From assembly GCA_973895155.1 (NCBI GenBank), contig OZ316893.1:24603520-24667519 (forward strand): a stretch of DNA of 64,000 nt, given 5' to 3'. The position numbers were made by a program, and so were the translations under genes. Position 1 is the stretch's first letter. Every line of letters begins with the position of its first letter. This stretch comes from Marsupella aquatica (Eukaryota; Plantae; Marchantiophyta). The notes under the pieces are model-generated. The model was not told the DNA's origin. It did not search any database and saw only the letters and a program-made list of their open reading frames with translations. This document shows positions 23,420 to 63,415 of this stretch, piece after piece.

Positions 23420-24934
23420 TTATTGAGTTCCCGTCATGTGATCTTCACCATCTATGACGTACTGAGTAGCGTTGTCCTCAATCCCACCTTTACGCTCGAC
23501 AGATTGGAACGGACCACCACCAACAGCGTGTTGCTGTTGCAGATTATGCAGAATCTGCAAAGCCAACGAGCTTCTTTGACCCGGAGTTTCTTCGACTGGA
23601 CTTCCGTGTAAGAAAACACCCAGAAGCAGCGATACCACATTCTGTTGACTTTGCATCATTTGAGCCTGCATTTGCGCAATAGTCGCCTGATGTCCCAACT
23701 GGAGAGTCGTCATCCGCTCTCTCCACTCTTGCTTCTCCTCCTCCCGCTTCTCCTCCCACGTCCTCTCTTTGTGTTTCTCTTCCTCCCACCTGACTCGATT
23801 CGTCAAATCGCGCTCATATTCTCTGTCCTCCCTCTCCCTCTCCCTCCTCCTCTCCTGCTCCTCTCTAATCCTCTCTCTCTCCAGCCTATTGTACTCCCTT
23901 TCGCGCTCTGCAGATTCACGGAGAAATTCGCGCTGCTCCCTCTCCCGCTCCTTGTCCCTCTCCCGTGCCTCCCGCTGCGCATCCCTCTCCCGCTGCTCGG
24001 TAATGTATGCTCCCAGGAAGGCCAGGATCTTACCCTCGGTCAGCACCGGGCCGCCCCCATCGCTTACACTGCTCATAGGATCTCGATGCCGCTTCAATTT
24101 CTTCTTCCTCGGTCCTAGGTCCTCCTCGTCCCTCATCATCATCCCGTCCTCCTCGTCCGCATAGCATTCGAGTCCGAGGCCCGAGACTACACCGGCTCCC
24201 CCCGTCAGGTCCTCTCCTTCCAGAGTTCCTCCGCCTCCTCCGCCGATGGAGCCATTCCCTCCCTCGCCCCCGAGCAGACGCGAATTGCTCCCGTTGAAGG
24301 CATGGCGGACACGGGAGGAGAATTCGGACAAGCGTCCCCGACCGCGACCTCCTCCGCCTCCGCCCCCGGGCTTTCCCTGAGCGCTGCCATCGAAGGACTT
24401 GTTGACGAGAGTGCTCGAGGGGCTGCCAGAGCCATTGCCGAGCGAGTCGTTCATGTCCAGCTCGACATCTCCGAACACTTCCTTGTAGCGTAAGAAATTC
24501 GACCAGTGCACAATGCCTTCCGTCCAGTCATACTCGTCTTGCAGCAGCTGCCCTCCACCTCCTCCCCCTCCTCCACCACTCTGTCCACCACCGCCACCAT
24601 TACAAGCAACATGACCAACAATACCGCCGCCGAGCTCCTTGCTGCTGCAGCCTCCGTTGGACGTCGCAGCATGGAAGGAGCGACGAATCTTCTGCTTGAC
24701 TCCCAGATACTGATTCCTCATGTTCTGAATTTTCACGGACAGATCTCGCCAACTCCACTCCCACGGAAACGACACATTATCCCGGAAGTGGTGCACGGCA
24801 TTCACGTGCGTTGCAATGGGCTCGAATTTCTTCTCCCGTGTCTTCAGCTTGGCGAGCGTCCCCGCTCTCGCCATCTCGCCGTACTTTGAAATCAGCGTCT
24901 GTTCTTCTTCCTCGCTCCATTTCTTGCGGCGCAT
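23420..24934 (-). CDS. Trihelix (Myb/SANT-like DNA-binding) transcription factor with coiled-coil C-terminus
   Basis: 504-aa uninterrupted ORF. N-terminal WSEEEEQTLISKY...KFEPIATHVN...WSWRDLSVKIQNMRNQY trihelix domain, Gly-rich linker, NLS PRKKKLKR, E/R-rich coiled coil; GC-rich coding-like composition. Confidence 0.9.
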   Translation of the reverse strand: MRRKKWSEEEEQTLISKYGEMARAGTLAKLKTREKKFEPIATHVNAVHHFRDNVSFPWEWSWRDLSVKIQNMRNQYLGVKQKIRRSFHAATSNGGCSSKELGGGIVGHVACNGGGGGQSGGGGGGGGGQLLQDEYDWTEGIVHWSNFLRYKEVFGDVELDMNDSLGNGSGSPSSTLVNKSFDGSAQGKPGGGGGGGRGRGRLSEFSSRVRHAFNGSNSRLLGGEGGNGSIGGGGGGTLEGEDLTGGAGVVSGLGLECYADEEDGMMMRDEEDLGPRKKKLKRHRDPMSSVSDGGGPVLTEGKILAFLGAYITEQRERDAQREARERDKEREREQREFLRESAEREREYNRLERERIREEQERRREREREDREYERDLTNRVRWEEEKHKERTWEEKREEEKQEWRERMTTLQLGHQATIAQMQAQMMQSQQNVVSLLLGVFLHGSPVEETPGQRSSLALQILHNLQQQHAVGGGPFQSVERKGGIEDNATQYVIDGEDHMTGTQ

Positions 24935-28479: not shown

Positions 28480-28945
28480 GTTCTTTACTTAAAGCCCATG
28501 ATGATTTTAACAACACAACCTCAAATTGTGCAGGGTTTGTTGATGGTCACGACCTAGAGACCTTGGCATCATACGACAAATCCCCCTTAACCCCCGCCTT
28601 AACCACTGATAATGCTATAGTTGCCCAATGTTGGTCAACTTTGTCACCATCCACAAAAATCATCCATGATTTTCCATGGAGGACATTGTGGGTAACAGCT
28701 AGGGACTGAATGTGGGTAGTGGTCAGCCTCTGTATAGACAACAAGTAAAGGTGATCCCAAGCTGCAGCCAAAGAAAGTGTGCTCACAATAGCATCCAACT
28801 TGTGGGCAAACTGTGCACTAACTGTTAACCATGGTATGTGGTTGAAGGGAATAGAGGATGGCTTCCATTCCTCAAGGAATTCAGCAATGGTTTGGTACTC
28901 GCTATCATAGGTGACCACATGGTCAGAACTACCAATGTCCATACG
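28480..28945 (-). pseudogene. DUF1917 / C11orf68 (Bles03, eIF4E-like fold) family remnant
   Basis: FLEEWKPS..IPWL..WD..IQSLAVTHNVLHGKSWMIFVDGDKVDQHWATIA..GDL..AKVS matches the family motif order as recalled; the expected C-terminal ICVYT/YKPD part is missing. Confidence 0.65.
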
Positions 28946-29981
28946 GAGGTAACAATCCTGCAAGGTAAGAATCCTGCAAGCAATAAGGAACAGGGTAGCA
29001 TGACTTATATAAGGTCCATCCGTAACCATACAACTGTATTTGAGAGTCCTTTTAGAAATCCTGGAATTTATGGTTCATGATTGTTTGAAGTGGAAGGAGA
29101 GTGGCTTAGGCATTTCAAGTTGGTGTTCAATGGTCTAGGGAAGTATGATAGAGATCACGTTGACATGGATCTGTCATTGATGTATGAATTTCAGGGACAT
29201 TCTAGCACAAATCAAAGCGTTGTGAGTAAGATGAGAAGCGCTATGAATCCTATGTAATAAAAAGATACAATCAAGTCTGAAATCATAAAAGTTTTGATTT
29301 GGAAGAGAAAGGAATTGGTAACGTCCTTAAGGGCGTAAGATCATTCATACAGCAACCCGGATGACCACGGTAAGGGGGACACGCAGGTTCCAGCAAAAAA
29401 AAAGTTTGACAATACGTACAGCAACGCAAAGCAACGAATACAAAATGCAAGAATTTAGCCAGATCAAGCTAAAATGCTATAGTGCAATGCAAGAATAGAA
29501 TCGCCAATGACAACAGCTCGGAAGGGGCATCGACAAGCAGCAAGAACTTTCCAACGTAGGCTTAACAACAGGTAAAGCAAGATTGGGGACAAAAGTCCAA
29601 CCTTGGACGTTTGAAGAAAGCACAACCTCAGCCCTTTCTTTCTTCTCAAGGACCGTTTTGTCTACCACACAATGAGGCGATGCTTCATAGCAACACTGTA
29701 CAACAGAAGGATTAGCTATGGGTTCCAAATTGAGTCAAATTTCAATGAAAAAGCGAAAGCGGAAGATTCCATGAAAACACTGGTCTCACCTTCTAGAGCA
29801 GGCATAAAGCTAACTCTGGCCTGTCACCGATGCCAAAATGAGAATGGATGGAGTGACCGGCTGAACAGACTCGTTGATCGGGAGATTGAACTGGAACTTA
29901 CTATCACAGGTCATATAACCATTTACAGGTCATTTTACGGACGGAATGGGAATGGGTATGAATAGTACCCAAACATATTTT

Positions 29982-30270
29982 TGTTGAGTATTGCTCTTAG
30001 TCTTGTGACTCTAGAGCTAACCATAGTTAGGCTAACTCAGGTTAGGACTTAGCTTAGATTAGCAGTGATGCATGCTGTATATAACCAGGGCTGATGCCAG
30101 CCCCTAGTGGATTCAGTTCATTGTTGGAGTGGGCAAGAGAGAAGTAAAGGTCTCTTGCTTTCCCGTGGACGTAGCCTCAATCGTGAGGTGAACCACGTAC
30201 TCACTATGTCGACTAATTTGTATGGTTTTCACATGTGCATGATGTCTTGGGATAGGGATTATCCCCAACA
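29982..30270 (+). mobile_element. 5' LTR of a Copia-type retrotransposon (truncated element)
   Basis: TGTTG...CAACA termini, TATATAA at ~30077, and a tRNA-iMet PBS TGGTATCAGAGC at 30273-30284. Non-coding internal sequence follows until the CACTA end at 31900. Confidence 0.8.
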
Positions 30271-31899
30271 AGTGGTATCAGAGCATGTCTAGGAGGTGAC
30301 ATTATGGTGACAAGAATTTCTTGTATAGTTGACGGTTTGAAGATCCTGAGAGTTTTTTGTTGCATGAAACTTGTTGGTGGTGGGCTCATTGGATAGATCG
30401 TTGAGAGGGCTTTCTAACGGTGGTTAGAAATCATCGATCGGGTTTCTGAATGAGGAGTAATCATAGAGAACGTTTCTTCTATGGAGTTTAATGTTTGACG
30501 GTATTTTTTGTGGGAGGGACTAGAGTTTGTTTTTTGCAACGGTGTGAGCTGTGCAGTGCGGGAGGCGTCGCATGTTATAGCTCAAGTTGTAAGTTGAAGC
30601 GAGCTGGCCGTTTTGGTACCTGGTTTGCTGGCGTTTGCAGTGCGAGTGTGACGTGACGAGTAGGAGTTGAGTTCTGGTTTTTTGACAAACTGTGGTGCTT
30701 GTTTTTCCTTGAACCGGGTTACTTGTCGTGACGCTTGACTCCAAGAAGCAAACGCAAAGTGCTACAGCTCAACGAAAAGATTGCAGCGAAGCACTTGTTT
30801 TGAGTCCAGGATTGGCACTTGACGCAGAGAGAGTGTGACTTGACGGAAGTTGTTTCTTTGCTATACTTGCAGACTGTGCCGGTGCAATTTGACAACTTTT
30901 TCCGTTAGCGATGGTCATTTCTCTTGTGCAAAGCAGCGGCATTTATGAACATATTTTTTCTTAAGGTCGTTTATGGTTTTAAGAGGGGTTTAGGGCATTT
31001 TTTGGTGTGTTTATACACACAAAAACGTGTGCATACACACACACACATTTTTCACCTAGCCCGGCTCGCATATGCGCCCCCTCCCTCGCAGCTGCTGCCC
31101 CCGACAACGGCCTCCCGGCTTGCAGCCCTGCCCTGCTTGTATGCGATTGCCGCCGCCTGTACGCGAATCCGCCTTGACCCGGACATACACGCTCCCCGTA
31201 CCCCTGCGCATACCCCCACCTGTGTAAGCTGACATGCATCGCGCATGTACGCGTGTGCGCATTTTTGAGCATATTTTTGCTAAGGGGCCTACAAGACCCC
31301 TTTAAGGGCCAATTTTCTTTGTTTTTCCTCGTCTCGTCTATTGGCAGTCCTGGGCCCGGTGACCCTCTATTTTAATTGCTCTGGCAGGGAGAACGGCCCC
31401 CTGTGAGCCCTGTTGTACTGTGCGGGGAATATCTGCAAAATAGAGAGTGTGTTTTTGGCCGCTAGTCAAAGATTCCAAGGTTCGAACGGTAACTTTTTTG
31501 GATATTTTTTGGCAAGGACGTAGCCACTGAAGTTAGCAACACAGCGCAATGATCGAATCACAATTCCAAAGACGGGTTGTACTTGGCATTTTGGTTATTC
31601 CCTGAGGTGATCAAAATAGGGGAGTTTCCCAAGGTTTTACCCACCCGACCAAAATTTGAATAAAATTTTGGTTGGATTTTGGTTTTGAATTTGATTTTCA
31701 GTGTTGGACTCCTAGCTTTGTGGTCTACACGGCGGTGTTGAGTTTTGAGTTTTTTGAGAAGTTGTGAAAAACAACATTTTTTTGTGATTTTCTCATATGA
31801 GTGACTCGGAGGAGACTGGGAGAATTGAAGTTGGTGAAGCTTCAAATTTGCGTCGGTCAGAAGTACTGTTTGAGAAAGAGCTTGTACCATTTGAGGAGG

Positions 31900-32890
31900 C
31901 ACTAGAAGAAAACAGGGCCCTCTATGACCAATCACCCAATGTCGGAGATGAATAAATGACCAAAATTTTTAATGACACAAAAAGAATGACAGGGGAATGA
32001 CTGCCCACAATCACCAATGGACTGAAATGACAAAATGTTAACTTTTGCGTCATTTTGTATTATGTCTGTAATGACTGATGTGACCAAAATGACCCAATTT
32101 CCCTAAATGGTCAATTTAGACACATGTCTTAAATAACGTAATTAATAACAATAATGATAAATCAGTATATAGCAACATTATAGTCACTTTGGACAATGAT
32201 TGAAATGACCAAAAATCTATTTGGGTCATTTTGGACAACGGTGATAAATGACAAAAAATGTATTACAGTCATTTTAACCAACGGTGTTAAATGACAAAAT
32301 ATAGGGTCAATCTGAAAATGAGAATATATCAGTGTTTATAACAACATATTGTCATTATGGACTTCTTCCATAAATGACTAACTCTAGGGTCAATCTTGAA
32401 ATTAGGACATATCAGTGTTTACAAGAACATACCGTCATTATGGACTTCTCTCATAAATGACTAACTCTAGGGTCAATCTTGAAATTAGGACATATTAGTG
32501 TTTACAAGAACATACCGTCATTATGGACTTCTCTCATAAATGACTAACTCTAGGGTCAATCTTGAAATTAAGACATATCAGTGTTTACAAGAACATACCG
32601 TCATTATGGACTTCTCTCATAAATGACTAACTCTAGAGTCAAACTTGAAATTAGGATATATCGGTGTTTACAACAACATACTGTCATTATGGACTTGTTG
32701 CATAAATGACTAAATATAGGGTCAATCTAAATATCATGATATATCAATGTTTACAATAACATACAGTCATTATGGACTTATTGCATAAATGACTACTTAT
32801 AGAGTCATTAAAGAACCCAAGAGATATGAAGATTAAAATATTCAATAGTCATTCCAGACACCGGTCATAATTGTAGAGTCATTGATATAG
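31900..32890. mobile_element. CACTA terminus with subterminal TGAC-rich repeats
   Basis: CACTAGAAGAAAAC at 31900 followed by dense AATGAC/GTCATT motifs; the matching opposite TIR was not found. Confidence 0.7.
32302..32810. repeat. Tandem array of ~6 x 83 bp
   Basis: TAG(G/A)GTCA unit starts at 32302, 32385, 32468, 32551, 32634, 32717 and 32800. Confidence 0.9.
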
Positions 32891-32911
32891 TTGATAACCC
32901 TTCCACTAACT

Positions 32912-34527
32912 AGTGCGGGACACAATACTCATCATTGGCCTCCCACTGGTTGGGGCATTAGCAATTTGAACACATGTCTTGCATTTACTTTAGGCATGAT
33001 GCACCTAGCTTTGGGGAAATCACCTTTGGAGTGATTTTCTAGAAGTGTCACCATATATAGATGCTCGCATATTATTGTATCCAAAGGCAAATGAAACATT
33101 TTTGTCTCTCCAAGAAGTAGGGCAATACCAATGGAAGGTTGTCATCCTTTGTTGTAATTGTGTCATGTTTGTGCCGGTGTTTGGATGGGGAATATTTTAA
33201 TTTGCAAATAAATAGTGATGGGGCATTCAAGGAGCTAGTGTAATCTTTATTGGGTCATTTCTAAAAATATTTGCATCACAAATACCAATGACTACAAGTA
33301 GGGTCATTAAATTTGTCATATGGACTGTCATATAAGTCAAGTGACTAGACTTGTGGTCATTTGTGTGGTCCCTCATGCAGTCATTAAACACAAGCACAAA
33401 TGACCAGTTTGGGGCTAGGGGCTGGAGGTGGGCCCTAGAGTGCATGGGGCCCCACATAGAGGTGAGAACCCCTCCACTGGGTGCGGGACACTATACTCAT
33501 CATTGTCCAACCACTAGTTGCGACATAAACACTTTGGACACATGTTTTTGTGTTTACTTGAGGCATGATGCACCTTTGGGGAAATCACTCCCAAGTCGTA
33601 CGACTTTGGAGTGATTTGCCAAAAGTGCAACCATGGATGTATACCATCACATCCAAAGGCAAATAAAAGTTGTTTTTTGGTTCTCCAAGAGGTAGTGCTG
33701 CACCAATGGAATGGGCAGGGGAGTCGTGCTTCTCTGCATGGTGTGGGTGCAGGATTAGGGTATAGGAATATTCCAACCTTGCAAGGAATCTAAAGCCGGC
33801 TCTCTTTGGAGGTACTAGGGCCTTTATTGGGTCATATGTGAGCAATTGCCCATCATAAATGCCAATTACTACAAGAAAGATCATTAAAATGGTCACATTG
33901 GATGTCATATAAGCAGAATGACCTAAATTATTGTCATTTGAGGGGTCCCTCATGCAGTCATTAAGGAAAAGCACAAATGACCAGTTTGACACTAGGGGCT
34001 GGAGGTGGGCCTTAGAGTGCCATGGGGCCCCACATAGAGGTGAGAACCCTTCCACTATGTGCGGGACACTATACTCATCATTGTCCAACCACTAGTTGCG
34101 ACATAAACACTTTGGACACATGTTTTTGCGTTTACTTGAGGCATGATGCATCTTTGGGGAAATCACTCCCAAGTCGTACGACTTTGGAGTGATTTGCCAA
34201 AAGTGTCAAATAGGCGCATACCATCACATCCAAAGGCAAATAAAAGTTGTTTTTTGGTTCTCCAAGAGGTAGTGCTCCACCAATGGAATGGGCAGGGGAG
34301 TCATGCTTCCTTGTGTGGTGTGGATGCGGGTTTAGAGAAGAGGAATATTCAGACCTTCCAAGGAATCTAAAGCGGGCTCTCTTTGGAGGTACTAGGGCCC
34401 CCATTGGGTCATTTTTGGGCAAAGTTGTGTCATAAGTGCCAATGACTATAAATAGGGTCATTGAAATTGTCATATAGGATGTCATATAAGTCAAATGACT
34501 GGACTTGTTGTCATTTGAAGGGTCCCT
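32912..34527. repeat. Tandem array of ~2.8 x 570-578 bp
   Basis: GTGCGGGACAC(A/T)ATACTCATCATTG recurs at ~32913, 33481 and 34059. Units 2 and 3 carry a ~42-bp palindrome (33578-33620, 34156-34198). Confidence 0.9.
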
Positions 34528-34853
34528 AAACATAGTGACGGACCAAACGAGAAGTGTGACCACACTTCTCATTTTGCCCACAGCAGAAAAAAATTCTAAG
34601 GCAAAAAAGTGTTGGATACTGAATTAGTATTCCCTCTAATAACCCAGATTTTTAGATTTTTAAAATGTAGGGATACGGCGTATCCCATTTCAGATCCCAC
34701 CGCAGTTTTCAAAAAAAACAAAAAACAAACGCAGTAAAAGGGGTGAGTACGGTTTACCCATCAAGAATATTCCTAGAGGATTCCTTTTAACGGTCACTTT
34801 TAATCGACTACGACAAAACTATGGTTAGAAACTGACCATGGTTGGGGGGAAAC

Positions 34854-34980
34854 TATAAATAGGAGAGCCCGACTCAATTTTTTTGTCTCATTTCTTCTTG
34901 CTCCCGCATTCGCTTGCTCTCGACGAATCCACAGTCTGTATGCATATTCGTATCCCCCAAGTCAGACTACAAAAACAGGT
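34854..34980 (+). promoter_or_regulatory. TATA box + leader exon + splice donor (cassette 1)
   Basis: GGGGGGAAAC-TATAAATAGGAGAGCCC...CTCATTTCTT...CAG|GTGAG; the donor is 125 bp after the TATA, the same spacing as cassette 2. Confidence 0.6.
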
Positions 34981-35011
34981 GAGTAATATATCTTTTTGGA
35001 AATCACGAGGA

Positions 35012-35314
35012 TGAATCCCAAATGGGATACGGCGTATCCGATTTGGGATTCAATCTTGAAAAATCCAGTTATGGCATGACGAAACATGAGAAAAAGAGGT
35101 TGGATGCCAAGTGGGATACCCGGTATCCCACTTCGCATCCAACCTCTACATAAGAAGCTCTTGTTTGAAAAATGCAGGAAATTTCAATGTTGAATGCGAA
35201 AGTGGGATACCCGGTATCCCATATGATATTCAACCTCTGAATATCAATCAGGTTAGGTCCGAAAGGCGAAGTTTGAATGCGAAGTGGGATACGGCGTATC
35301 CCTTCGGGTATTCA
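35012..35314. repeat. Periodic palindrome array 1 (4 copies of TGAATGCGAAGTGGGATAC-NNN-GTATCCCACTTCGCATTCA-like)
   Basis: Hairpins at 35012-35052, 35095-35147, 35189-35234 and 35273-35314, with centres 89, 91 and 82 bp apart. An extra core lies at 34670-34686. Confidence 0.9.
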
Positions 35315-35489
35315 ACAATAGCTTTTTTGCGATGGCGAAAGATATCTCAAGTATTGACAATGGTTTTGCAGGCTAGGTTCTGATTAACTTTGATAGAAGC
35401 TCTTGCTTCCTTTGAGCCTACCATTTTGGAGTGACGAACTATTAAAGCTTTAGCTTTCTTTGAGACTTACATTTTCAACCGTGAGTTCA

Positions 35490-35816
35490 ATGACGGTCCA
35501 GATTCAAAACCGAGATAAACGTGCCCGTCAATTGTATAAGAGATTAGTTGAACTCACAGTGCTTCCTGTTGGATTAGGAGCGCTTTGGATGGGAGGCGTA
35601 GATCCTCGAGATAGTCTCAATCCGCTCTGAATTGAGTTTTGAGAAAAGAATGAGCAAGGAGTTCCAATTTGGTCAAGAATTTATTTGAGTGGTTGTCTGC
35701 ATTATGTTGATTCTTTGTGTAATTATTGTCATGATGATCAAAACAAGTATCATCGATTGGCATACTTGTGTTGTCGAATTTGGAACGAAGATCCTTGGGT
35801 TAACTCTTCCCATTGA
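35490..35816 (+). pseudogene. Small Cys/His-rich orphan ORF with two internal TGA stops
   Basis: MTVQIQNRDKRARQLYKRLVEL...NPL*IEF*EKNEQGVPIWSRIYLSGCLHYVDSLCNYCHDDQNKYHRLAYLCCRIWNEDPW; both stops are compatible with CGA>TGA. Confidence 0.4.
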
Positions 35817-36026
35817 ATCTTTTTGATTCTTGGCTCACAAATATTTGGAGTCTTGTTCAGTATTCTTGGCTCACAAAGATTTAGACATGATGTTTTTCTT
35901 TTTCTTTTCTTCAATAAAGTAATTGAATCTTTTGATCCCGGTTTTGTAGGTTCTTCAAAAAGAGAACTTCTCTATTTTCTCTATCACTCCAGGTATTTCT
36001 TTTTTTTTGTGTCAAACTAGTTTGGA

Positions 36027-36536
36027 ATGGCCGTCCCTCAAAACCTTGTCTTCGCAAGGTTAGCGACCATATTTGAGAAAGAGAAGAAGAAACAAATTGA
36101 GCAGAAACAGGGCCGAAGAGAATCCGGACTACTTTTGGATGGACTTCCTGATGAGATTGTTGAAACATTCATATGGCCAATTTTGAAAGTTTCTTGCATC
36201 GAGGACGAATTTGATTCTTCCAAGATCTCGGCTGAAGACAAACTCAGCCGACTAAAAGAAATGATTTGGCTGGGATCCTCCTCAAAAAAATGGAACCAGC
36301 TTGTAGTTTGTACACAAGTATGGGGTCTCCTTCGACTAGCACGAAGCCAGTTTGAGGGATTAAAAGAATTGCTTGATCATAGCGTTCCCCATCGAGACCC
36401 ACTTCAGAATGTTCATCTCACAAACTTTTTTAGGATGAAAATTTTGAATCTTCCCCCAATTGATTTCCTTGGTTTGTTTTCGACATCAGAACTAAGTCAA
36501 TTTCAAGGGGACTGGGTAAATCTAGAGAAAGATTAG
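36027..36536 (+). CDS. Small F-box-like protein
   Basis: 169-aa ATG ORF with LLDGLPDEIVETFIWPIL...LGSSSKKWNQLV, which resembles the F-box LP.E....I...L...V(C/S)K.W..L motif with an insertion. Confidence 0.55.
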   Translation: MAVPQNLVFARLATIFEKEKKKQIEQKQGRRESGLLLDGLPDEIVETFIWPILKVSCIEDEFDSSKISAEDKLSRLKEMIWLGSSSKKWNQLVVCTQVWGLLRLARSQFEGLKELLDHSVPHRDPLQNVHLTNFFRMKILNLPPIDFLGLFSTSELSQFQGDWVNLEKD

Positions 36537-36920
36537 CAAGCCAGCCTAGTGGAAATATATGGACAGACTTGAGGGTTAGCTTGATTCATGTTCTATCATT
36601 CATGTTTAGGTATGCTCATGGTGAGCTACTTGTAAAAATGTTTTTCATGAATCAATATAATATCTTTTGTGGCACATCTTTGGGCCAAACTCAGATTCTC
36701 AACATATTGCCCTAGCTGGCTTCCAAACCTTTAGTTTCTCGTTGCCAATAGCATCCAAATGAGGGTATCCCATATCGGATTACCCCACTATATTTTTCCG
36801 TAAAACATTCTTCAAACACGGTCAAATGAAATGGTTGTAACGCATACTAGATTTGCCGCGAGTATTTCATGCGACTATTGCGAGTAACTAACTCCCTTGT
36901 TACGTAGTGAGGGGAAAAAG

Positions 36921-37047
36921 TATAAATAAGAGTGCCCCCCCGAAAAGGTACGCTCATTTCTTATCGCTTGCGCCACCTCTCCCTCTTTCCAAATCCTTGA
37001 TCTCTATAGATATTTGTATTCGCTCGGCAGACAATCCTTCACCAGGT
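36921..37047 (+). promoter_or_regulatory. TATA box + leader exon + splice donor (cassette 2)
   Basis: GGGGAAAAAG-TATAAATAAGAGTGCCC...CTCATTTCTT...CAG|GTGAG; donor at 37046, 125 bp after the TATA. Confidence 0.6.
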
Positions 37048-37089
37048 GAGAATACAGTCTACACTCCATTTTGAGACAAACTGGGAGGA

Positions 37090-37277
37090 TGAATCCGGAG
37101 TGGGATACCGCGTATCCCACTTCGCATTCACTTTGGCCAAATTCTTGTTTGAGAAGGAAAACGCACTGAGATTTGGGGATGAATACGAAGTGGGATACCC
37201 TGTATCCCACTTCGCATTCAACATGCAAATCTTCAAAGTTTTTCATATTTCTCAGCGCAACTAAGGGGTTGAATACT
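37090..37277. repeat. Periodic palindrome array 2 (2 copies plus a third cut by the CACTA insertion)
   Basis: Hairpins at 37090-37130 and 37180-37220 (90-bp period). The next unit starts TGAATAC at 37270, again 90 bp later, and is interrupted by CACTA at 37278. Confidence 0.88.
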
Positions 37278-38132
37278 CACTAGAAGAATCCGAGGTGAAC
37301 TGAGACCGCAATATATGACTCATTTTGGCTCATGTGACTTCATTGTGACTCAACGTGACTTGACCCACGCTGTGACCCTTGGAGTTGCAAAAGTTGAGAC
37401 CAAAAAATGGAAGTCACTATTGATACTGGGCTTTGCAACTTGCTTGATACCCATTTGTGACTGATCTGTGACTTTATTGTGGAGTCTAGCCTTGTTTCGA
37501 CGTGACTGCAATATGACTTCAGCGAGTCACATCGTAAGTCACATACATGACTTACCCGCATTCAACAACGACTAGCGTGTGACTATTTAGTGTCACAGGA
37601 GAGACCAATGGAGACCCTGGCCCGCGTCACACAACAGAACCATTTGGGACTCTATATACTCATGTTTATAACTAATAAGGTTCACATGCAAGTTATAACC
37701 ATGACTAATGAACACAGAGGGACAGTTCATAAGGAGAGAGAGCACTCGACATTACAATACATAGAAACCTGATGTTCTAACTTTAGAAATATAACACATT
37801 GAATACAAGAAATGAACATAGCATGAATGACATCCACATGAAACAAAGCATCATATAAGCAGATCCTACATAAAACATTCATAAGAATTAAACACAATCA
37901 CAATCTTGCTAAAAAATGAAGATCATTTGAATTCCAATGGAATAGTTTACAATGTGATCAATGTAATTTAGACAAAACAGGAACTCATAATTGATGACTG
38001 TAGGATGAGATAACTGAAAGCACATGCATGATACTATGAATCTCCAAGAGGACATGATTCTTGTACTGCTTCTTGACATCTAAAATCTACATAACATGAC
38101 TCACACTACAAACAAATAATGGCATGACATTG

Positions 38133-46328: not shown

Positions 46329-49300
46329 TGTCAAACACTTGCCAAGGAGCTTAAGCGGCTTTTCTCCCCAAAAGACTACCTAATACCTGCTCCATGTCAT
46401 ACCAGGGTCACAAAGGATTGACAAAACTTCTGAAGTGTGCTTACAATGTCCAATCACTCCATACATAAGTAGTTTCAACTCTCCACTTCTAGAGAGGTAG
46501 TCCCCTTGACTACTTTTGTACTCACCCCTTCCCCTCTCCTCTACTCCAAGGATCAGCAAGGGGGATCTCCGCTCCAAGCTGTCACCTTAGAGTAGATTCT
46601 CACACAAACACCCAAGAACCCAAAGTACTTTCCTCTTCAAGCTTAAGTCTCCTCAAGACCCTCAAAGTAGTGTTACCCCTCAACCTTGCCCCCCTGGCCT
46701 TGGTTTGGGTCCACACATCCCCTTTGAGCCCTAGAGAAGGCTCCTCTATCTAAGGACTCTTCCTCTTGTTCTTACTTCTTGTTAACACCACACACCAAGC
46801 AAAGTACTTTCCACCCTCAAGCTATAATCCTCTCTAAGTCTCAAAGTAATGCTATACCTTAACCTTGCCTCCTTGGCCTTGGTTTTGTACTAGCACATCC
46901 CCTTCAAGCTTAGACCAAGATTATACCATAGCATGGACTCTTCTCTTGCTCTCATATACTTCAAATGCACTCACACTTAATGGTCACAATGAAGATTGGT
47001 AAGTCTCCTTTTATTGCATCACCTTTACAACAAAAGTTCACTACACATTCTCCACACTAAGCATGGACCACCTCTCCTTTCTCAAGCTTAGCCCTACCTT
47101 GGCAAGGTAGAGATTTCACTTAAGAGATGAGACTCCCGGTCCCTAACAAATGAAAACTTCCTCCTTATATACTATCTCCTTCCACATCACACCAAGCTTG
47201 ACCTGGGGTCCAACTATACCTCCCCCAAGTCCTCCTAACACACAAAGTCCAACTCTATAGTTCATAGCCCACCCTACTACTTGCTATTTTGCCTCCTTCC
47301 AAGCCCTGGAATATGCCACACATGAGTGGTATGCTTTGACTTCCAAACCTACTCCCACTTATGGTCCTCCTCACCAGCTTACCAACCCACTTGAAAGCTC
47401 GCAAAAAGAGTGAGTGAGTCTCAAGTTGTGCCTAGTCAAAGTTGGCCTTATTTTACTTGTAACCCCTTTACTACCCTAAGTAAACTACCCCCTATATTTA
47501 CTTTTCTTAACTTGATGGCCTTACACCTTTGGCCAAAGGTAAGTACCCTTCTCTAGAGCCTAACTCAAGTGGTATGGGTGCAAGAAAGGTCAGCCCCTAA
47601 ATCTGGTATTCATTCCCCTATGCCGACTTTGGTTTGCAAGTTGTCGGGACTCCCTCGTGGCCTCGGTTAAAAATATATTTGAGTGATTACTTTTCTGGGG
47701 TTCCACCTTCACCAGGGGGTGCCTTATCTTCCCCTAACTCAGCACAAAAAAATTTGGGCCCCAACGGATACCTCTAGCCAAAGTTATGCCCATTCTCCCA
47801 AGGCCTGTTTTTGGTGTAAAGCGGGTGTAAGCGGCGGCCCGATTACACTTACCTTATATGCCCCTTATGGGGATTCCACGTGTCATGAGGGGAGAGCACT
47901 CTCATTATACTCATGTTTCTTATGAAGAAATTGTAAGGACAGCAATGTTTGCAGCCATTTCTCTCTCGTGAATTCAATCTAAAACCACAGCATTCTCTAT
48001 TGGATTCTTTCTTGTGCAGCAGTCCAGCTGATCAGCCGCCAGCCCCTCAATTTCACAGCCACCATAGCTCACAGCCAGCCTAGTCAATTTCGCAGCTAGC
48101 CCACCTCTTCAATTTTGCCGCTAGCAACACAGTCAATTTCGCAGCTAGCAGCACAGTCAATTTCGCAGCTAGCAGCACAGTCACATCAGCGCATTTACAG
48201 CACAACAACAGCAGATTTGAAGCACAGCAGCAGCAACCATAGCTTGATTCCTTCTCAGTCAAGCAGGTCTCTCTTCTCAATTTCGTAGCTGCCCACCTTT
48301 GCAATTTCGCAGCTAGCAGCAGCATCATTCAATTCAGCAGCATCAAGGCAGCAGCCAGCCAATTCTCATGAGCATCTCGTGCCTGATTAGTAGGAGCACC
48401 TCTAATCTAGTGTGCAGCTGTCATAGCAGCAAGCAGCCTTCCCAATTCAAAGCCAGCAGCGATCCTAATTTGCAGCCATAGCTCTTTTCCTTCTCAGCAG
48501 CCATAGCTTCTTCAATCAGCAACAGCCCTTGCTTCTTCAATCAGCAGCAGCCATTTCAATTCAGCCGCCCTTCCTTCAATTCAGCCGCCCTTGTGCTCAA
48601 TTGATTCCTCAAGTAATCATGCAGCACCTTTGGACAGCCTCCCGGTGCTTGACGTCCTCACCAGCCTCGTGCTTGCTCCTCCTTGCCTCGTGCTCGCTCC
48701 TCCTTGCCTCGTGCTCGCCGCGTGATCGTCGCCCACGCGGTTTACACTTAGAAAAAAATACATTTTTTTTTTGGAAAAACAGCATTTTGGGGCGATTTTG
48801 GACCCCCCTCCAAAACTCACACATAAGTCCAAAAGGACTTCTGAGTAGCTCCACTGATTCTATGGACATAGGACTATGTCCGGGTTTACTAAGATATAAA
48901 CAAAACCCTATAACAACTTTTCTAAAATTAGGCAAAGAGGGTCAAGTCTTTATGTCTTCCAAAATTCTTCTCAACTTTGAGATGCTCCCAAAAAGTAACC
49001 AAGTGTGACAAAGTTGTCCCACAAGTTTCTAGGGATAGAGGGGACCATACTTAACCCACTTCCAAACTTGGAACCCCTACATTTACCCATCAGCTATTTT
49101 TCCCGGGACCCGCTATTTGGTAACTTTGATTTTTGCCAAAATACTTATAACTCCTAGGTTAAGACCCCACTTGACTTCATACTTTTTCAGGGTTCCCTAG
49201 GGACCTCCCAGCACCCATGGGAGAAATATCAGCCAAAAATAAGATGTCCGGTGTCGGGTCATTTTTCGGTCCCGACTTAGTCGCCTATTATAACTAAGGA

Positions 49301-49516
49301 CGGACTAGTTTCCTGCCCCTCCTATAGTAACTTGCTTACCCCTAGATAACTTTGCATAACTAAATTCCCTCTTACCTCTACTAAGCTTCCCTTCTTACTT
49401 AAGTGCCCTAAACCTAGCTACTCTGATAGCACTAAAACTTTTTCCCTAACTATTTCCTCTTCTAAACGAAAGAATGTCATGTTTCTCTACACTAGCTGAC
49501 ACTGAGCCATCCCACA
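46329..49516 (-). repeat. 3' LTR (3188 bp)
   Basis: Direct repeat of 55680-58867 at a constant 9351-bp offset. Contains an internal ~180-bp diverged duplication (~46620-46950) and CAATTTCGCAGCTAGC repeats (~48050-48320). Confidence 0.97.
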
Positions 49517-55679: not shown

Positions 55680-58600
55680 TGTCAAACACTTGCCAAGGAG
55701 CTTAAGCGGCTTTTCTCCCCAAAAGACTACCTAATACCTGCTCCATGTCATACCAGGGTCACAAAGGATTGACAAAACTTCTGAAGTGTGCTTACAATGT
55801 CCAATCACTCCATACATAAGTAGTTTCAACTCTCCACTTCTAGAGAGGTAGTCCCCTTGACTACTTTTGTACTCACCCCTTCCCCTCTCCTCTACTCCAA
55901 GGATCAGCAAGGGGGATCTCCGCTCCAAGCTGTCACCTTAGAGTAGATTCTCACACAAACACCCAAGAACCCAAAGTACTTTCCTCTTCAAGCTTAAGTC
56001 TCCTCAAGACCCTCAAAGTAGTGTTACCCCTCAACCTTGCCCCCCTGGCCTTGGTTTGGGTCCACACATCCCCTTTGAGCCCTAGAGAAGGCTCCTCTAT
56101 CTAAGGACTCTTCCTCTTGTTCTTACTTCTTGTTAACACCACACACCAAGCAAAGTACTTTCCACCCTCAAGCTATAATCCTCTCTAAGTCTCAAAGTAA
56201 TGCTATACCTTAACCTTGCCTCCTTGGCCTTGGTTTTGTACTAGCACATCCCCTTCAAGCTTAGACCAAGATTATACCATAGCATGGACTCTTCTCTTGC
56301 TCTCATATACTTCAAATGCACTCACACTTAATGGTCACAATGAAGATTGGTAAGTCTCCTTTTATTGCATCACCTTTACAACAAAAGTTCACTACACATT
56401 CTCCACACTAAGCATGGACCACCTCTCCTTTCTCAAGCTTAGCCCTACCTTGGCAAGGTAGAGATTTCACTTAAGAGATGAGACTCCCGGTCCCTAACAA
56501 ATGAAAACTTCCTCCTTATATACTATCTCCTTCCACATCACACCAAGCTTGACCTGGGGTCCAACTATACCTCCCCCAAGTCCTCCTAACACACAAAGTC
56601 CAACTCTATAGTTCATAGCCCACCCTACTACTTGCTATTTTGCCTCCTTCCAAGCCCTGGAATATGCCACACATGAGTGGTATGCTTTGACTTCCAAACC
56701 TACTCCCACTTATGGTCCTCCTCACCAGCTTACCAACCCACTTGAAAGCTCGCAAAAAGAGTGAGTGAGTCTCAAGTTGTGCCTAGTCAAAGTTGGCCTT
56801 ATTTTACTTGTAACCCCTTTACTACCCTAAGTAAACTACCCCCTATATTTACTTTTCTTAACTTGATGGCCTTACACCTTTGGCCAAAGGTAAGTACCCT
56901 TCTCTAGAGCCTAACTCAAGTGGTATGGGTGCAAGAAAGGTCAGCCCCTAAATCTGGTATTCATTCCCCTATGCCGACTTTGGTTTGCAAGTTGTCGGGA
57001 CTCCCTCGTGGCCTCGGTTAAAAATATATTTGAGTGATTACTTTTCTGGGGTTCCACCTTCACCAGGGGGTGCCTTATCTTCCCCTAACTCAGCACAAAA
57101 AAATTTGGGCCCCAACGGATACCTCTAGCCAAAGTTATGCCCATTCTCCCAAGGCCTGTTTTTGGTGTAAAGCGGGTGTAAGCGGCGGCCCGATTACACT
57201 TACCTTATATGCCCCTTATGGGGATTCCACGTGTCATGAGGGGAGAGCACTCTCATTATACTCATGTTTCTTATGAAGAAATTGTAAGGACAGCAATGTT
57301 TGCAGCCATTTCTCTCTCGTGAATTCAATCTAAAACCACAGCATTCTCTATTGGATTCTTTCTTGTGCAGCAGTCCAGCTGATCAGCCGCCAGCCCCTCA
57401 ATTTCACAGCCACCATAGCTCACAGCCAGCCTAGTCAATTTCGCAGCTAGCCCACCTCTTCAATTTTGCCGCTAGCAACACAGTCAATTTCGCAGCTAGC
57501 AGCACAGTCAATTTCGCAGCTAGCAGCACAGTCACATCAGCGCATTTACAGCACAACAACAGCAGATTTGAAGCACAGCAGCAGCAACCATAGCTTGATT
57601 CCTTCTCAGTCAAGCAGGTCTCTCTTCTCAATTTCGTAGCTGCCCACCTTTGCAATTTCGCAGCTAGCAGCAGCATCATTCAATTCAGCAGCATCAAGGC
57701 AGCAGCCAGCCAATTCTCATGAGCATCTCGTGCCTGATTAGTAGGAGCACCTCTAATCTAGTGTGCAGCTGTCATAGCAGCAAGCAGCCTTCCCAATTCA
57801 AAGCCAGCAGCGATCCTAATTTGCAGCCATAGCTCTTTTCCTTCTCAGCAGCCATAGCTTCTTCAATCAGCAACAGCCCTTGCTTCTTCAATCAGCAGCA
57901 GCCATTTCAATTCAGCCGCCCTTCCTTCAATTCAGCCGCCCTTGTGCTCAATTGATTCCTCAAGTAATCATGCAGCACCTTTGGACAGCCTCCCGGTGCT
58001 TGACGTCCTCACCAGCCTCGTGCTTGCTCCTCCTTGCCTCGTGCTCGCTCCTCCTTGCCTCGTGCTCGCCGCGTGATCGTCGCCCACGCGGTTTACACTT
58101 AGAAAAAAATACATTTTTTTTTTGGAAAAACAGCATTTTGGGGCGATTTTGGACCCCCCTCCAAAACTCACACATAAGTCCAAAAGGACTTCTGAGTAGC
58201 TCCACTGATTCTATGGACATAGGACTATGTCCGGGTTTACTAAGATATAAACAAAACCCTATAACAACTTTTCTAAAATTAGGCAAAGAGGGTCAAGTCT
58301 TTATGTCTTCCAAAATTCTTCTCAACTTTGAGATGCTCCCAAAAAGTAACCAAGTGTGACAAAGTTGTCCCACAAGTTTCTAGGGATAGAGGGGACCATA
58401 CTTAACCCACTTCCAAACTTGGAACCCCTACATTTACCCATCAGCTATTTTTCCCGGGACCCGCTATTTGGTAACTTTGATTTTTGCCAAAATACTTATA
58501 ACTCCTAGGTTAAGACCCCACTTGACTTCATACTTTTTCAGGGTTCCCTAGGGACCTCCCAGCACCCATGGGAGAAATATCAGCCAAAAATAAGATGTCC

Positions 58601-58867
58601 GGTGTCGGGTCATTTTTCGGTCCCGACTTAGTCGCCTATTATAACTAAGGACGGACTAGTTTCCTGCCCCTCCTATAGTAACTTGCTTACCCCTAGATAA
58701 CTTTGCATAACTAAATTCCCTCTTACCTCTACTAAGCTTCCCTTCTTACTTAAGTGCCCTAAACCTAGCTACTCTGATAGCACTAAAACTTTTTCCCTAA
58801 CTATTTCCTCTTCTAAACGAAAGAATGTCATGTTTCTCTACACTAGCTGACACTGAGCCATCCCACA
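55680..58867 (-). repeat. 5' LTR (3188 bp)
   Basis: Copy of 46329-49516; all six-frame ORF translations in the two LTRs are identical. Confidence 0.97.
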
Positions 58868-60163
58868 AACACATTATGGGACATGACATAAAAGCGAATG
58901 TCTCCCTTCCCAAACTTGCGGCAGGCTTTGGGATATGACTTAGTAATGACATGAGTGGTGTCCTCTGTTATATTCTCCTCCACTATCCCACCTAGGTCAA
59001 GCACTGTGGACTTGTACACTTTGCACTTAACCTCTCCAATTCCCGCCTCCACAAATACCATGCTCAGCCCTTTCAGAATGGGGGTTGGTTGCTTCGTCTC
59101 CTCAGCCAACATACTCTTCAGCCTTGTAGAGCTCTGTCCTTTGTTGAGTACAGGTCCATATTGGAGATCAGCAAGCCGTGCCTTTGCTTCCCAGACTTCT
59201 TGTTCAGCCCAAGCTGATGCAGTAGCTTCTTCATCCTCCCACAACTCATATTGCTCAGTATCCTGTACAATCTTATGTGCTATGGAATCTGTGATCCAAG
59301 AGGCCTCAACTACTTTTAGGCCTTGCTTAGTAATTGCAGAATTCATGTAGGACCATGACCACTTCTTTATCACTGATAGCCATGTCCCTGCAACAACATG
59401 TGTAGTCTCTGGAGTGATGTCCTGAACTACAGTGCCATGGAGCTCAGAGAATCGTTTCTATACAGTTGGCCAATGCACTTTGGTCAACCCATGCTGGCCA
59501 TGGACCAAAATCGCTCTGACCCCTGTAAACACTGCTGGGTGGTCACATTTTCTACGTTTACCAGGCTCCATGTACACACACCCTACGTGATGACAGTGAA
59601 TTTTGGAAGAATGGGTTCACCTGACAATACAAGGACAACAAAATTCCTGCTTTTTGAGTTGATCTGGCCCACTGGTGCTCAGGTCCGATTTTGATAGGTA
59701 CAAGGGATATGTGAACAATACGTACTAGGCACCTGCACGGATGCAGGACATTGTTTGAATATATACTACAAAATCCATATCCGTGGTGAAATGAAGTGCA
59801 ACCAACTTGTCATGGCACATACATATTTTGTTGTAAAGGAGGATACATTCAATGACAAACTTATAGGGCAATTTGATTAATTGCATGCCTGATAATTTAT
59901 ACGCTTACAACTTAGAAGTCCTGTTTTAATTTAGCAGTCTGATGAAAGTGTTTATGAAAATGACCACTCAGCCTAAATACTTCCAAGAAGGCTTGTAAGG
60001 ATAAGTTTGTATAGGCATGTACCCAGCCACTGACGCCAGAGCACAAGATAAGTGCTGCCTATATAAACTCGCCTACCCAACTCCTTTTCAAAATTGGAAT
60101 CTCTGCAATCTCAAAAAATAGTACATCCACATCAGGTGCACTGTGCATGTACAATGTTCAGCT

Positions 60164-60844
60164 TCACAGCCAAGATATGTGATCTCTCACAGGAGTGCGC
60201 GAGGTAGGATCAATGGCATGGCGATGACAATAAAATATCCATCGATCAACACCATGTGCAGAGTGATCATAGATTTCTCTGTCACAAGCATAACCCTCTG
60301 CTTGATGATCTTTCAGGCAATGATAGTGCCACATAGTGGGACACCTAGCACAGTGGACTATGTCAGTCCAGTAGTCATCATCATGCTCACCACATGCCTT
60401 GCACCTATGAAGTGGGCAAGCTATGGCATGAGCAGGCAAACACTCAAAACAGAAAAATCTCACACAAAAACGGTCTGGACATTTCCTAACATTTGCTGCA
60501 GCATCAACAGAGCCCTCATAGGACCCCAACTTCCCACACTGTGCACACTTAGCCTGCTTCTCCAAACAATCAGTGCACATCCAGTCTCCCTGGTGTGTTG
60601 ACGGGAGGCCCACCCCTGGACAGTTGTTTTCTGCAGCAAGGTCAGACTCCGGGTTGAGGTGGAAATGCCTCATGCAAGGGCCCTCACAAATGACCAGGCC
60701 CCCACCATCGTCACAAATGGCACAACAATGAGCTGCCTTCTGGAAAATCTGACTTGCAGAGAAGTTAGTAGCATCTGCCCCAAGTACACCTGTGTTTCTC
60801 ACCTCTGTCACACGCTTTTTGGCTTGAATTTTAGGCCGTGCCAT
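60164..60844 (-). CDS. Stand-alone EDM2-type triple-PHD-finger protein
   Basis: Intact 226-aa ORF. CAICDDGGGLVICEGPCMRHFH..WMCTDC..CAQCGKLGS..ACPLHRCKAC..CARCPTMWHYHCL..IFYCHRHAIDP..TPVRDHI follows the recalled EDM2 PHD cassette (CAICDNGG..CEGSCLRSFH..CPLHKC..CRRCPKSYHRKCL..IYCQEHEID..TPVRDH). Confidence 0.85.
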   Translation of the reverse strand: MARPKIQAKKRVTEVRNTGVLGADATNFSASQIFQKAAHCCAICDDGGGLVICEGPCMRHFHLNPESDLAAENNCPGVGLPSTHQGDWMCTDCLEKQAKCAQCGKLGSYEGSVDAAANVRKCPDRFCVRFFCFECLPAHAIACPLHRCKACGEHDDDYWTDIVHCARCPTMWHYHCLKDHQAEGYACDREIYDHSAHGVDRWIFYCHRHAIDPTSRTPVRDHISWL

Positions 60845-60855
60845 GCCTGCGCATG

Positions 60856-60999
60856 AGATAGACTCTACAATTTAGCAGACTGCACAGAAAGTAAAATATA
60901 TTTAGCATTTAAGGTACAAAGGCATTTAGATAGACTCTACAATTTAGCAGACTGCACAGAAAGTAAAATATATTTAGCATTTAAGGTACAAAGGCATTT
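60856..60999. repeat. Perfect 72-bp tandem duplication
   Basis: AGATAGACTC...GGCATTT at 60856-60927 and 60928-60999. Confidence 0.95.
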
Positions 61000-63072: not shown

Positions 63073-63415
63073 ATCTTCGAAAAGAAGCCCACCACAATTA
63101 AGAACTTCGGTATCTGGGTCCACGTATCAGAGTCGTACAGGTTATCACAACATGTACAAGGAATATTGTGATACCACAAGAAACGGAGCTGCAGAGCAGA
63201 TGTATGATGAGATGGCTTCTTGTCATAGAGTTCGGTTCCCTTGCATCCAGATCATGAAGACTACGACAGTCCCTGTCTCTCTGTGCAAGCGAGAAAGTAC
63301 CAAGCAGTTCCATGATTCAAAGATCAAGTTCCCCTTGACGTACTGCAAGATTCAACCTCCATTGCGAAAGCTAAAGAAGACTTACAAGGCCACCAAGCCC
63401 AACACAATTGTTTGA
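63073..63415 (+). pseudogene. RPL18A: 60S ribosomal protein L18a (eL20) last-exon fragment
   Basis: After a CAG acceptor: [16 protein letters not shown], then a frameshift, then [56 protein letters not shown]-terminal exons were not recognised. Confidence 0.9.

What the first reader, a model, noticed from the sequence alone, without database searches (positions are those of the whole stretch)
34670..37277. Two ~90-bp-periodic arrays of long palindromes with non-identical spacers (CRISPR-like layout) behind TATA leaders
Seen: consensus TGAATGCGAAGTGGGATAC-NNN-GTATCCCACTTCGCATTCA with arms up to 25 bp and a variable 3-nt loop. There are four copies at an 82-91-bp period (35012-35314), two plus a truncated copy at a 90-bp period (37090-37277), and a lone core at 34670. 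Arm changes are often compensatory within a copy (GAATCCCAAAT/ATTTGGGATTC versus AGAGGTTGGATGC/GCATCCAACCTCT), so symmetry is conserved more than sequence. Spacers of ~40-50 bp are mostly dissimilar; two share TCTTGTTTGA. Each array starts 30-45 bp after a splice donor, i.e. in a predicted first intron. Inference: phased operator sites for a dimeric element-encoded protein, a hairpin or small-RNA source, or recombination/replication sites of an unclassified mobile element.
Basis: partly seen in the sequence, partly recalled or inferred. Interest (0 to 1): 0.8.

Follow-up and report, generated by a model that had tools for sequence, protein, structure and literature searches.

The report
Palindrome arrays in liverwort transposon promoters
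A repeated, likely mobile element in a leafy liverwort carries a duplicated promoter block whose predicted first intron holds evenly spaced long DNA palindromes; these are likely docking sites for a regulator protein that would keep the element's genes on, and they are not a CRISPR array.

Summary
The palindromes are real: six full copies, one truncated, one lone core, plus a degenerate ninth site near 36765. They belong to a multi-copy element in a leafy liverwort genome. Its left end is at 34529/34530, inside one CACTA, and a second CACTA at 37278 cuts it off. The two arrays are paralogous copies of one cassette: upstream site, TATA, short exon, GTGAG donor, array. Cassette A precedes an F-box-like ORF whose family has five named members in Calypogeia fissa.

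Two first-stage claims fail. Symmetry is not conserved more than sequence (98/114 versus 95.7 permuted, p 0.28). The spacers are inherited along with the element rather than acquired. What is conserved is two blocks per arm, TGAAT and GGATAC, around a variable 8-nt middle (2/132 versus 22/96 deviations), which looks like protein contacts. CpG is retained in the cassettes (55 CG:49 GC versus 177:486 in the flanking CACTAs).

Best reading (0.5): operator arrays for an element-encoded activator or anti-silencing factor, like VANC or TnpA targets, in an unclassified element. The binding protein, the transposase and transcription are not shown.

The parts
34529..37277 (.). Visible part of an unclassified multi-copy element, inserted in the third 577-bp unit of a CACTA and cut on the right by a second CACTA
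   Evidence: Unlike sequence before 34529 in 18 contigs of X1 (agreement 0.4) and 6 of X2 (0.52); a unitig of X3 ends exactly at 34529; all 30 bins of 34300-37600 covered in all 4 runs; junction against the other two 577-bp units
34540..34579 (.). Terminal hairpin, 19-bp arms, 10 nt inside the end; its arm also occurs in tandem in other copies
   Evidence: (I24); loose end at 34561 and A>G at 34571 that improves pairing
34670..34698 (.). Upstream site U0 of cassette A (core plus right arm; the left arm is complete in some other copies)
   Evidence: 4 contigs of X3 carry a full left arm before 34670
34854..34861 (+). TATA box of cassette A (predicted)
   Evidence: sequence; aligns with cassette B
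34976..34984 (+). Predicted splice donor CAG|GTGAGT of cassette A
   Evidence: a third exon type ending CAG|GTGAGA joins at 34990 in 3 contigs of X3
35012..35052 (.). Palindrome A1
35095..35147 (.). Palindrome A2 (longest arms)
35191..35232 (.). Palindrome A3 (one extra base in the left arm; middle of the right arm unpaired)
35274..35314 (.). Palindrome A4 (middle of the right arm unpaired, both blocks intact)
36027..36572 (+). F-box-like ORF, 169 aa to a stop at 36534-36536 that the other laid copies lack; next in-frame stop at 36570-36572
   Evidence: 8 homologs of 109-206 aa; F-box PF00646 weakly in 7 of 9 aligned members, best E 5e-4, none for this copy; T>C at 36534 makes up all the depth in all 4 runs; one homolog cluster has 5 members named Calypogeia fissa
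36753..36782 (.). Degenerate upstream site of cassette B (right arm with both blocks; left core missing)
   Evidence: (D3, I23, I25)
36921..36928 (+). TATA box of cassette B (predicted)
37043..37051 (+). Predicted splice donor CAG|GTGAGA of cassette B
37090..37130 (.). Palindrome B1
37180..37220 (.). Palindrome B2
37265..37277 (.). Palindrome B3, truncated by the CACTA insertion at 37278; complete in other copies
   Evidence: joints from 37274 into a full arm in X2 and X3 (table 5c); CACTA end and transposase domains

Best explanation
The palindromes are repeated sites inside a multi-copy, likely mobile liverwort element, placed upstream of and just inside the predicted first intron of a duplicated promoter cassette, and they likely act as operators for a dimeric or tetrameric regulator, likely element-encoded, that would keep these promoters unmethylated and active. 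SHOWN: the repeat family, its left end, the paralogy of the two cassettes, the site anatomy (TGAAT-N8-GGATAC-N3-GTATCC-N8-ATTCA: four GRATNC-like half-sites, two per arm, 12 bp apart), CpG retention, and inherited linkers. INFERRED: (1) the arrays arose by old tandem duplication of a ~90-bp unit, after which selection kept the contacted blocks while the linkers drifted; (2) the mirrored changes in A1 and A2 came from template switching, not selection on a stem; (3) a protein binds the double-stranded sites and recruits demethylation or transcription machinery, as VANC and TnpA do; (4) the genes so driven, such as the F-box-like ORF, are accessory genes of the element. The protein and the transposase are not in the window.
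For: Two-block conservation: 2 of 132 deviations in the outer and inner blocks against 22 of 96 in the middle; p 0.022 after allowing for the post-hoc choice of block. A3 and A4 lose mid-arm pairing yet keep both blocks at the same spacing. Position is fixed relative to TATA and donor in two paralogous cassettes that align without the palindromes (0 of 500 shuffles reach the score), and a third exon type joins the same array start. CG:GC is 55:49 in the cassettes against 177:486 in the flanking CACTAs (Fisher p 2.5e-7); CpG o/e is 0.74-1.03 against 0.27, 0.34 and 0.13. The element is multi-copy with a sharp end. Precedent: VANC binds motif clusters in introns and other non-coding parts of VANDAL elements (PMC5735166, passages); TnpA needs dense motif clusters and causes local hypomethylation (bioRxiv 10.64898/2026.08.24.746577, section 4).
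Against: No binding protein, transposase, RNA or methylation data were found. The inner block was partly chosen by the search itself, and 12 arms are not independent. CpG retention in the cassettes is not significantly above the rest of the same element (29:42, p 0.13), so it may reflect the element's history rather than the arrays. Palindrome bins are 7-51 times deeper than neighbouring spacer bins, so most palindromes lie beside other linkers, and I could not see whether these are all in such cassettes. VANC and TnpA motifs as described are 8-10 nt, and the VANC paper's main text never uses the word palindrome. The half-sites could equally be read by a host factor.
Confidence: 0.5

Rival explanations
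1. The palindromes are recombination or replication sites of the element: recombinase-binding arrays or hairpin substrates of an HUH/Rep enzyme that shuffle, invert or amplify promoter-gene cassettes, in an integron-, REP- or hr-origin-like way.
For: Four half-sites around a 3-nt centre suit a recombinase or initiator (inference). Contigs join arms to linkers not present in this window (table 5c). The terminus has a hairpin 10 nt inside, next to a conserved A at an inferred A|T target, which is Helitron-like geometry (PMC11417382 passages). Baculovirus hrs are both origins and enhancers (PMC4535591 abstract).
Against: No Rep, helicase or recombinase among 41+97 ORFs scanned. The end lacks CTRR. 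No clear inverted linker (best reverse-strand pair p 0.037 among 20 tests). The sites sit inside the intron, not at cassette borders. Novel joints are also expected from paralogous arrays.
Confidence: 0.17
2. The arrays are intronic hairpin RNAs processed to small RNAs, or RNA structures that control splicing or stability.
For: The + strand folds far better than shuffles (z -8.9 and -7.0). The sites lie just after a predicted donor. The flanks of B2 pair weakly beyond the arms (p 0.027, 1 of 6 copies tested; the A2 result, p 0.003, includes its longer arms).
Against: Any palindrome folds well. There is no excess of compensatory change, and A3 and A4 stems are broken in the middle. The same site lies upstream of the TATA box in both cassettes, outside the predicted transcript. 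Rfam gives 0 hits at gathering score and only weak miRNA-type hits.
Confidence: 0.12
3. The palindrome is itself a tiny mobile or foldback unit (micro-MITE) that inserts near these promoters.
For: Palindrome bins are 7-51 times deeper than spacer bins.
Against: Regular 82-91-bp period; the same register in two paralogous cassettes; linkers inherited across copies and across organisms A and B (X2 pieces 35010-35101 and 35078-35183 differ by 0 and 2 letters); no flanking duplications seen on inspecting the flanks printed (no formal test).
Confidence: 0.1
4. A neutral, decayed tandem repeat whose arms are kept only by template switching and gene conversion.
For: Template switching can fix stems in one step (bioRxiv 10.1101/2021.04.15.439925, abstract and opening) and explains the three mirrored changes in A1.
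Against: It predicts symmetry above sequence conservation, which was not found, and it does not explain why two blocks are invariant across loci while the middle varies.
Confidence: 0.11

Closest known systems
VANC target clusters in Arabidopsis VANDAL (Mutator-like) elements (PMC5735166 and PMC10398659, passages read)
   Same: Repeated motifs clustered in non-coding parts, introns included, of a multi-gene transposon; linked to low CG methylation
   Different: VANC motifs are 8-9 nt and sit in fast-evolving tandem repeats; here the site is a 41-53-bp palindrome of four half-sites, linkers are unalignable within an array, the host is a liverwort, and no VANC-like gene is seen
TnpA-binding motif clusters of Spm/CACTA elements (bioRxiv 10.64898/2026.08.24.746577, abstract and section 4 read)
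   Same: Dense cognate motifs near an element end and promoter; local hypomethylation and activation
   Different: This element's end is not CACTA; the arrays are promoter-linked and recur 2.6 kb inside; motif size and symmetry differ
Baculovirus homologous regions (hrs) (PMC4535591, abstract and introduction read)
   Same: Short arrays (3-8 units of 64 bp in that virus) each holding an imperfect palindrome, acting as enhancer and origin
   Different: Here in plant nuclear DNA; only the palindrome, not the whole unit, is conserved; no viral genes; motif absent from viral contigs
Helitron-like elements HLE1/HLE2 and Replitrons (PMC11417382 passages; PMC10288648 passages, section 9 part 1 of 2, and a search of its supplements)
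   Same: Hairpin close to the end, a conserved flanking base, cargo genes; both groups are reported in non-seed plants
   Different: No TC or CTRR end, no Rep or RepHel in view, other end not visible; internal palindrome arrays are not mentioned in the passages read
CRISPR arrays (definition recalled)
   Same: Leader followed by regularly spaced, partly palindromic repeats with dissimilar spacers
   Different: Repeats vary, spacers are inherited element sequence, no cas genes, eukaryotic intron setting

Membership tests
CRISPR array | Near-identical repeats | tested here: not met
   Arm-to-arm identity is 12-19 of 19; no CRISPR-DR family at gathering score; the one weak DR hit (E 0.8) lies in the ORF, not the arrays
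CRISPR array | Unique spacers acquired from foreign DNA | tested here: not met
   Spacer bins are covered in all 4 runs and two organisms; a variant of the A1-A2 linker printed matches about 28 of 40 positions by eye; no match in 50,697 phage records or elsewhere in the window. Plant TE and plant virus libraries could not be searched
CRISPR array | Adjacent cas genes | tested here: not met
   No such Pfam family among 41 and 97 ORFs scanned; the element's other part lies outside the window
VANC/TnpA-type anti-silencing target cluster | Motif clustered in non-coding parts of a multi-copy TE | tested here: met
VANC/TnpA-type anti-silencing target cluster | Motifs embedded in recognisable tandem repeats | tested here: not met
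   TRF reports none here; linkers 37-54% identical
VANC/TnpA-type anti-silencing target cluster | Local loss of CG methylation | tested here: inconclusive
   CpG retained relative to flanking TEs (p 2.5e-7) but not significantly relative to the rest of the element (p 0.13); proxy only
VANC/TnpA-type anti-silencing target cluster | TE-encoded protein binds the motif | not testable with these tools
   No whole genome is held; no candidate gene in view
Helitron HLE1 | 5' TC start, or 3' hairpin followed by CTRR | tested here: not met
   The hairpin is 10 nt from the end, but the end reads neither TC on + nor CTRR on -
Helitron HLE1 | Insertion between A and T without duplication | tested here: inconclusive
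   The 577-bp unit has A then T at this register and A34529 is shared by the laid contigs; the other end is not visible
Helitron HLE2 / Replitron | Short terminal inverted (HLE2) or direct (Replitron) repeats at both ends; Rep or RepHel gene | not testable with these tools
   Only one end is in the window; the terminal 9-mer is absent from the 7 Replitron supplementary files held as text
CACTA subterminal repeat | Element end begins CACTA/CACTG | tested here: not met
   The variable flank is left of 34529 and the end reads AACATAG; CACTA ends are at 31900 and 37278
Baculovirus hr | Palindrome arrays in a baculovirus genome, bound by IE1 | tested here: not met
   Plant nuclear setting; no viral contig match. 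It resembles an hr in layout only
pre-miRNA / hairpin RNA cluster | Covarying stem | tested here: not met
   (p 0.21-0.33)
pre-miRNA / hairpin RNA cluster | Precise small-RNA duplex from the arms | not testable with these tools
   No RNA holder listed
F-box protein (ORF 36027) | F-box motif | tested here: inconclusive
   7 of 9 aligned members match PF00646 at E up to 1, best 5e-4; this copy does not; the models are low confidence (pLDDT 42 and 50)

The most novel reading that the evidence does not exclude
An undescribed class of plant mobile element, possibly rolling-circle, runs its own regulon. Every gene sits behind a copy of one promoter cassette with hr-like arrays of four-half-site palindromes. 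One element-encoded protein reads them both as anti-silencing enhancers and as recombination or replication sites that shuffle the cassettes, which would be a eukaryotic counterpart of baculovirus hrs or integron sites.
Probability: 0.13. Interest if true: 0.85.

Novelty: new variant of a known kind. Interest (0 to 1): 0.5.

Why it matters
Sequence-specific anti-silencing by transposons is worked out for VANC and TnpA in flowering plants. A liverwort element with a long, symmetric, four-half-site target repeated at each promoter would extend this to an early-diverging land-plant lineage and a different protein fold. The long, information-rich site also makes the cognate protein easy to find by DAP-seq or pull-down. 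It could give an orthogonal activator or demethylation tool. The element's end fits no family tested here, so it may also be an unclassified transposon group.

Tried and rejected
No whole genome is held for this window, so no genome-wide map was possible.

Core motif: 0 hits in viral contigs. It gave 9 hits in metagenome contigs, all single cores with perfect arms of 9-14 bp, no arrays and no longer similarity to the window; these were rejected as chance. Compound motif: 0 hits in viral contigs and 4 in prokaryote genomes against about 2.2 expected. Terminal 21-mer: 0 in viral contigs.

No RNA holder was listed; this is no evidence either way.

For the ORF, word-index searches found nothing at near or longer lengths, nor did Pfam on the single sequence or PDB sequences (a weak HMG-box-like match at E 0.32 is not counted). 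The exhaustive search did find 8 relatives. Both structure predictions were low confidence, so no fold search was run. The ESM Atlas gave no answer. No loci around the homologs could be fetched, so it is untested whether they have the same promoter arrays.

Rejected: that the region is internal CACTA-1 sequence (variable flanks at 34529); that the TAGTG ending at 36909 is a CACTA end (contigs run across it, and there are no subterminal motif clusters); alternating inverted linkers.

Literature searches found no description; exact-motif search (10 papers listed, none on plants by title; seen as listings only); 0 mentions of 'palindrom' in two liverwort genome papers. Supplements of bioRxiv preprints and TE libraries such as Repbase could not be seen and may hold this family. 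Earlier scan notes held nothing on this sequence or place.
Full report
SETTING. The window is TE-rich plant nuclear DNA. The trihelix-like gene at 23423-24934 is 88% identical to a Calypogeia fissa protein and 50-56% to Riccia and Marchantia proteins, so the host is most likely a leafy liverwort. A CACTA-type end with ATGAC/GTCAT-rich, 83-bp and 577-bp tandem units runs from 31900 to 34527. A second CACTA starts at 37278 and carries Transposase_21, DUF4216, DUF4218 and Transposase_24 domains. It is itself interrupted by a Gypsy element with two identical 3188-bp repeats. No whole genome is held.

OBSERVATION. The donor and TATA motifs are also present. The linkers are not a decayed satellite. 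The claim that symmetry outlasts sequence fails its control. Left and right arms of the same copy agree at 98 of 114 positions against 95.7 when arms are permuted among the six copies (p 0.28). Mirrored changes number 4 against 2.3 (p 0.21), all in A1 and A2. One extra base in the A3 left arm was set aside for that alignment.

ONE CASSETTE, TWICE. The two loci align from the upstream site to the first palindrome. The promoter-exon part aligns on its own, without palindromes, better than all 500 shuffles. Both read: upstream degenerate site, about 140-155 bp, TATAAATA, a short predicted exon, CAG|GTGAG, 33-44 nt, array. The upstream site of cassette B (about 36753-36782) was not in the finding. 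Three contigs of run X3 bring a different exon end with the same donor to the start of array A, so the family has at least a third cassette.

THE CASSETTES LIE IN A REPEATED ELEMENT WITH A SHARP END. Contigs of four runs (two organism codes, two studies; X1 may be the window's own source) were laid on 34300-37600. There were 2020, 962, 536 and 1121 pieces, most under 99% identity, and all 30 bins were covered in each run. On 34470-35370, 18 contigs of X1 and 6 of X2 stop matching before 34529 with mutually unlike flanks (agreement 0.4 and 0.52), and one unitig ends exactly there. That is the signature of an insertion boundary, here inside the third 577-bp unit. A 19-bp hairpin starts 10 nt inside. 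The geometry and the inferred A|T site recall a Helitron 3' end on the minus strand, but CTRR is absent (definitions from PMC11417382), and the other end lies beyond the second CACTA. The truncated third copy of array B is explained: other copies continue from 37274 into a full arm, so the CACTA insertion cut it. Summed depth is not copy number, but palindrome bins are 7-51 times deeper than the adjacent linker bins in the four runs. The site is therefore far more widely repeated than any one linker. Linkers are inherited: X2 pieces spanning 35010-35101 and 35078-35183 differ by 0 and 2 letters, and a diverged A1-A2 linker in X4 matches about 28 of 40 positions by eye. This removes the CRISPR-like reading.

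THE GENE. Cassette A is followed by a predicted intron and an ORF at 36027. Its stop at 36534 is read as a sense codon in all laid depth of all four runs, so this copy looks broken. An exhaustive search found 8 relatives of 109-206 aa at 28-37% identity. One cluster holds five Calypogeia fissa proteins, each with a different contig length, which fits a multi-copy, element-borne gene. The alignment shows an F-box-like L-x-G-L-P-x-E-(I/L)-V-E...W pattern, and 7 of 9 members match Pfam F-box weakly. The predicted structures were uninformative.

WHAT IS CONSERVED. Across 12 arms, TGAAT (2 of 60 deviations) and GGATAC (0 of 72) are nearly fixed, while the 8 nt between them vary (22 of 96). Allowing for the post-hoc choice of block, p is 0.022. 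A3 and A4 have lost mid-arm pairing but keep both blocks at the same spacing. Each palindrome is thus four GRATNC-like half-sites, two per arm 12 bp apart, head to head across 3 nt. This pattern suits base contacts by a multimeric protein on double-stranded DNA better than an RNA stem (inference). From recall, and not tested here, such half-sites resemble plant GARP/Myb-type motifs, so a host factor is possible. CpG is retained in the cassettes (55 CG:49 GC) against strong depletion in the flanking CACTAs (177:486, p 2.5e-7), but the contrast with the rest of the element is not significant (29:42, p 0.13).

MECHANISM AND RIVALS. The best reading (0.5) is promoter-linked operator arrays for an activator or anti-silencing protein of the element, analogous to VANC and TnpA. 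The mirrored changes are ascribed to template switching. Rivals: recombination or replication sites (0.17), hairpin RNA (0.12; strong folding, but no covariation and sites upstream of the TATA box), neutral repeat (0.11) and micro-MITE (0.10).

NOVELTY. The motif has no relatives above chance in viral, metagenome or prokaryote collections or in Rfam. The paper searches named under Tried and rejected found no description; TE libraries and preprint supplements could not be checked. Papers seen: PMC5735166, PMC10398659, PMC11417382, PMC12885004 and PMC9985172 as passages; PMC10288648 as passages, section 9 part 1 of 2 and a supplement search; bioRxiv 10.64898/2026.08.24.746577 as abstract and section 4; PMC4535591 and bioRxiv 10.1101/2021.04.15.439925 as abstract and opening; all others as listings. 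The likely function is of a known kind. The site architecture, the duplicated cassette and the unclassified host element are new as far as I could search. Verdict: new variant of a known kind, interest 0.5.

Noticed in passing
window 58846-60871 (-), right of the Gypsy insertion: BRCT and PHD-finger ORFs that probably belong to the CACTA starting at 37278; the Gypsy element sits in the BRCT gene, has 100% identical LTRs (46329-49516 and 55680-58867) and an AACAC target duplication, so it is very recent.
   Followed up: partly
window 1870-2976 (+): Retrotransposon integrase ORF ending in a PHD finger (E 7.7e-12) where a chromodomain is more usual.
   Followed up: no
window 28550-29074 (-): Bles03 (PF08939) domain ORF in a repeat-rich region with no other recognised gene.
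   Followed up: no
window 11600-12640: Array of 35-bp ACGACATC units ending in a canonical Helitron-like 3' end (CTAG then T at about 12637-12641), with an internal near-copy of that end at about 11941.
   Followed up: partly
window 33574-33625 and 34152-34203: A different 52-bp palindrome with no loop inside the 577-bp tandem units of the left CACTA; the first unit lacks most of it.
   Followed up: no
window 63047-63412 (+): Frameshifted ribosomal protein L18a fragment, probably a captured or processed pseudogene.
   Followed up: no
L010, L011, L013 at 570-670: Foldback hairpins made of 11-12-bp GGATAC tandem units in Paenibacillus and Peribacillus records; similar build to the liverwort arms, probably convergent.
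   Followed up: no
window 29200-31899: Probable LTR end and tRNA-Met primer-binding site at about 30265-30285, followed by a leader that the CACTA at 31900 interrupts (by inspection).
   Followed up: no
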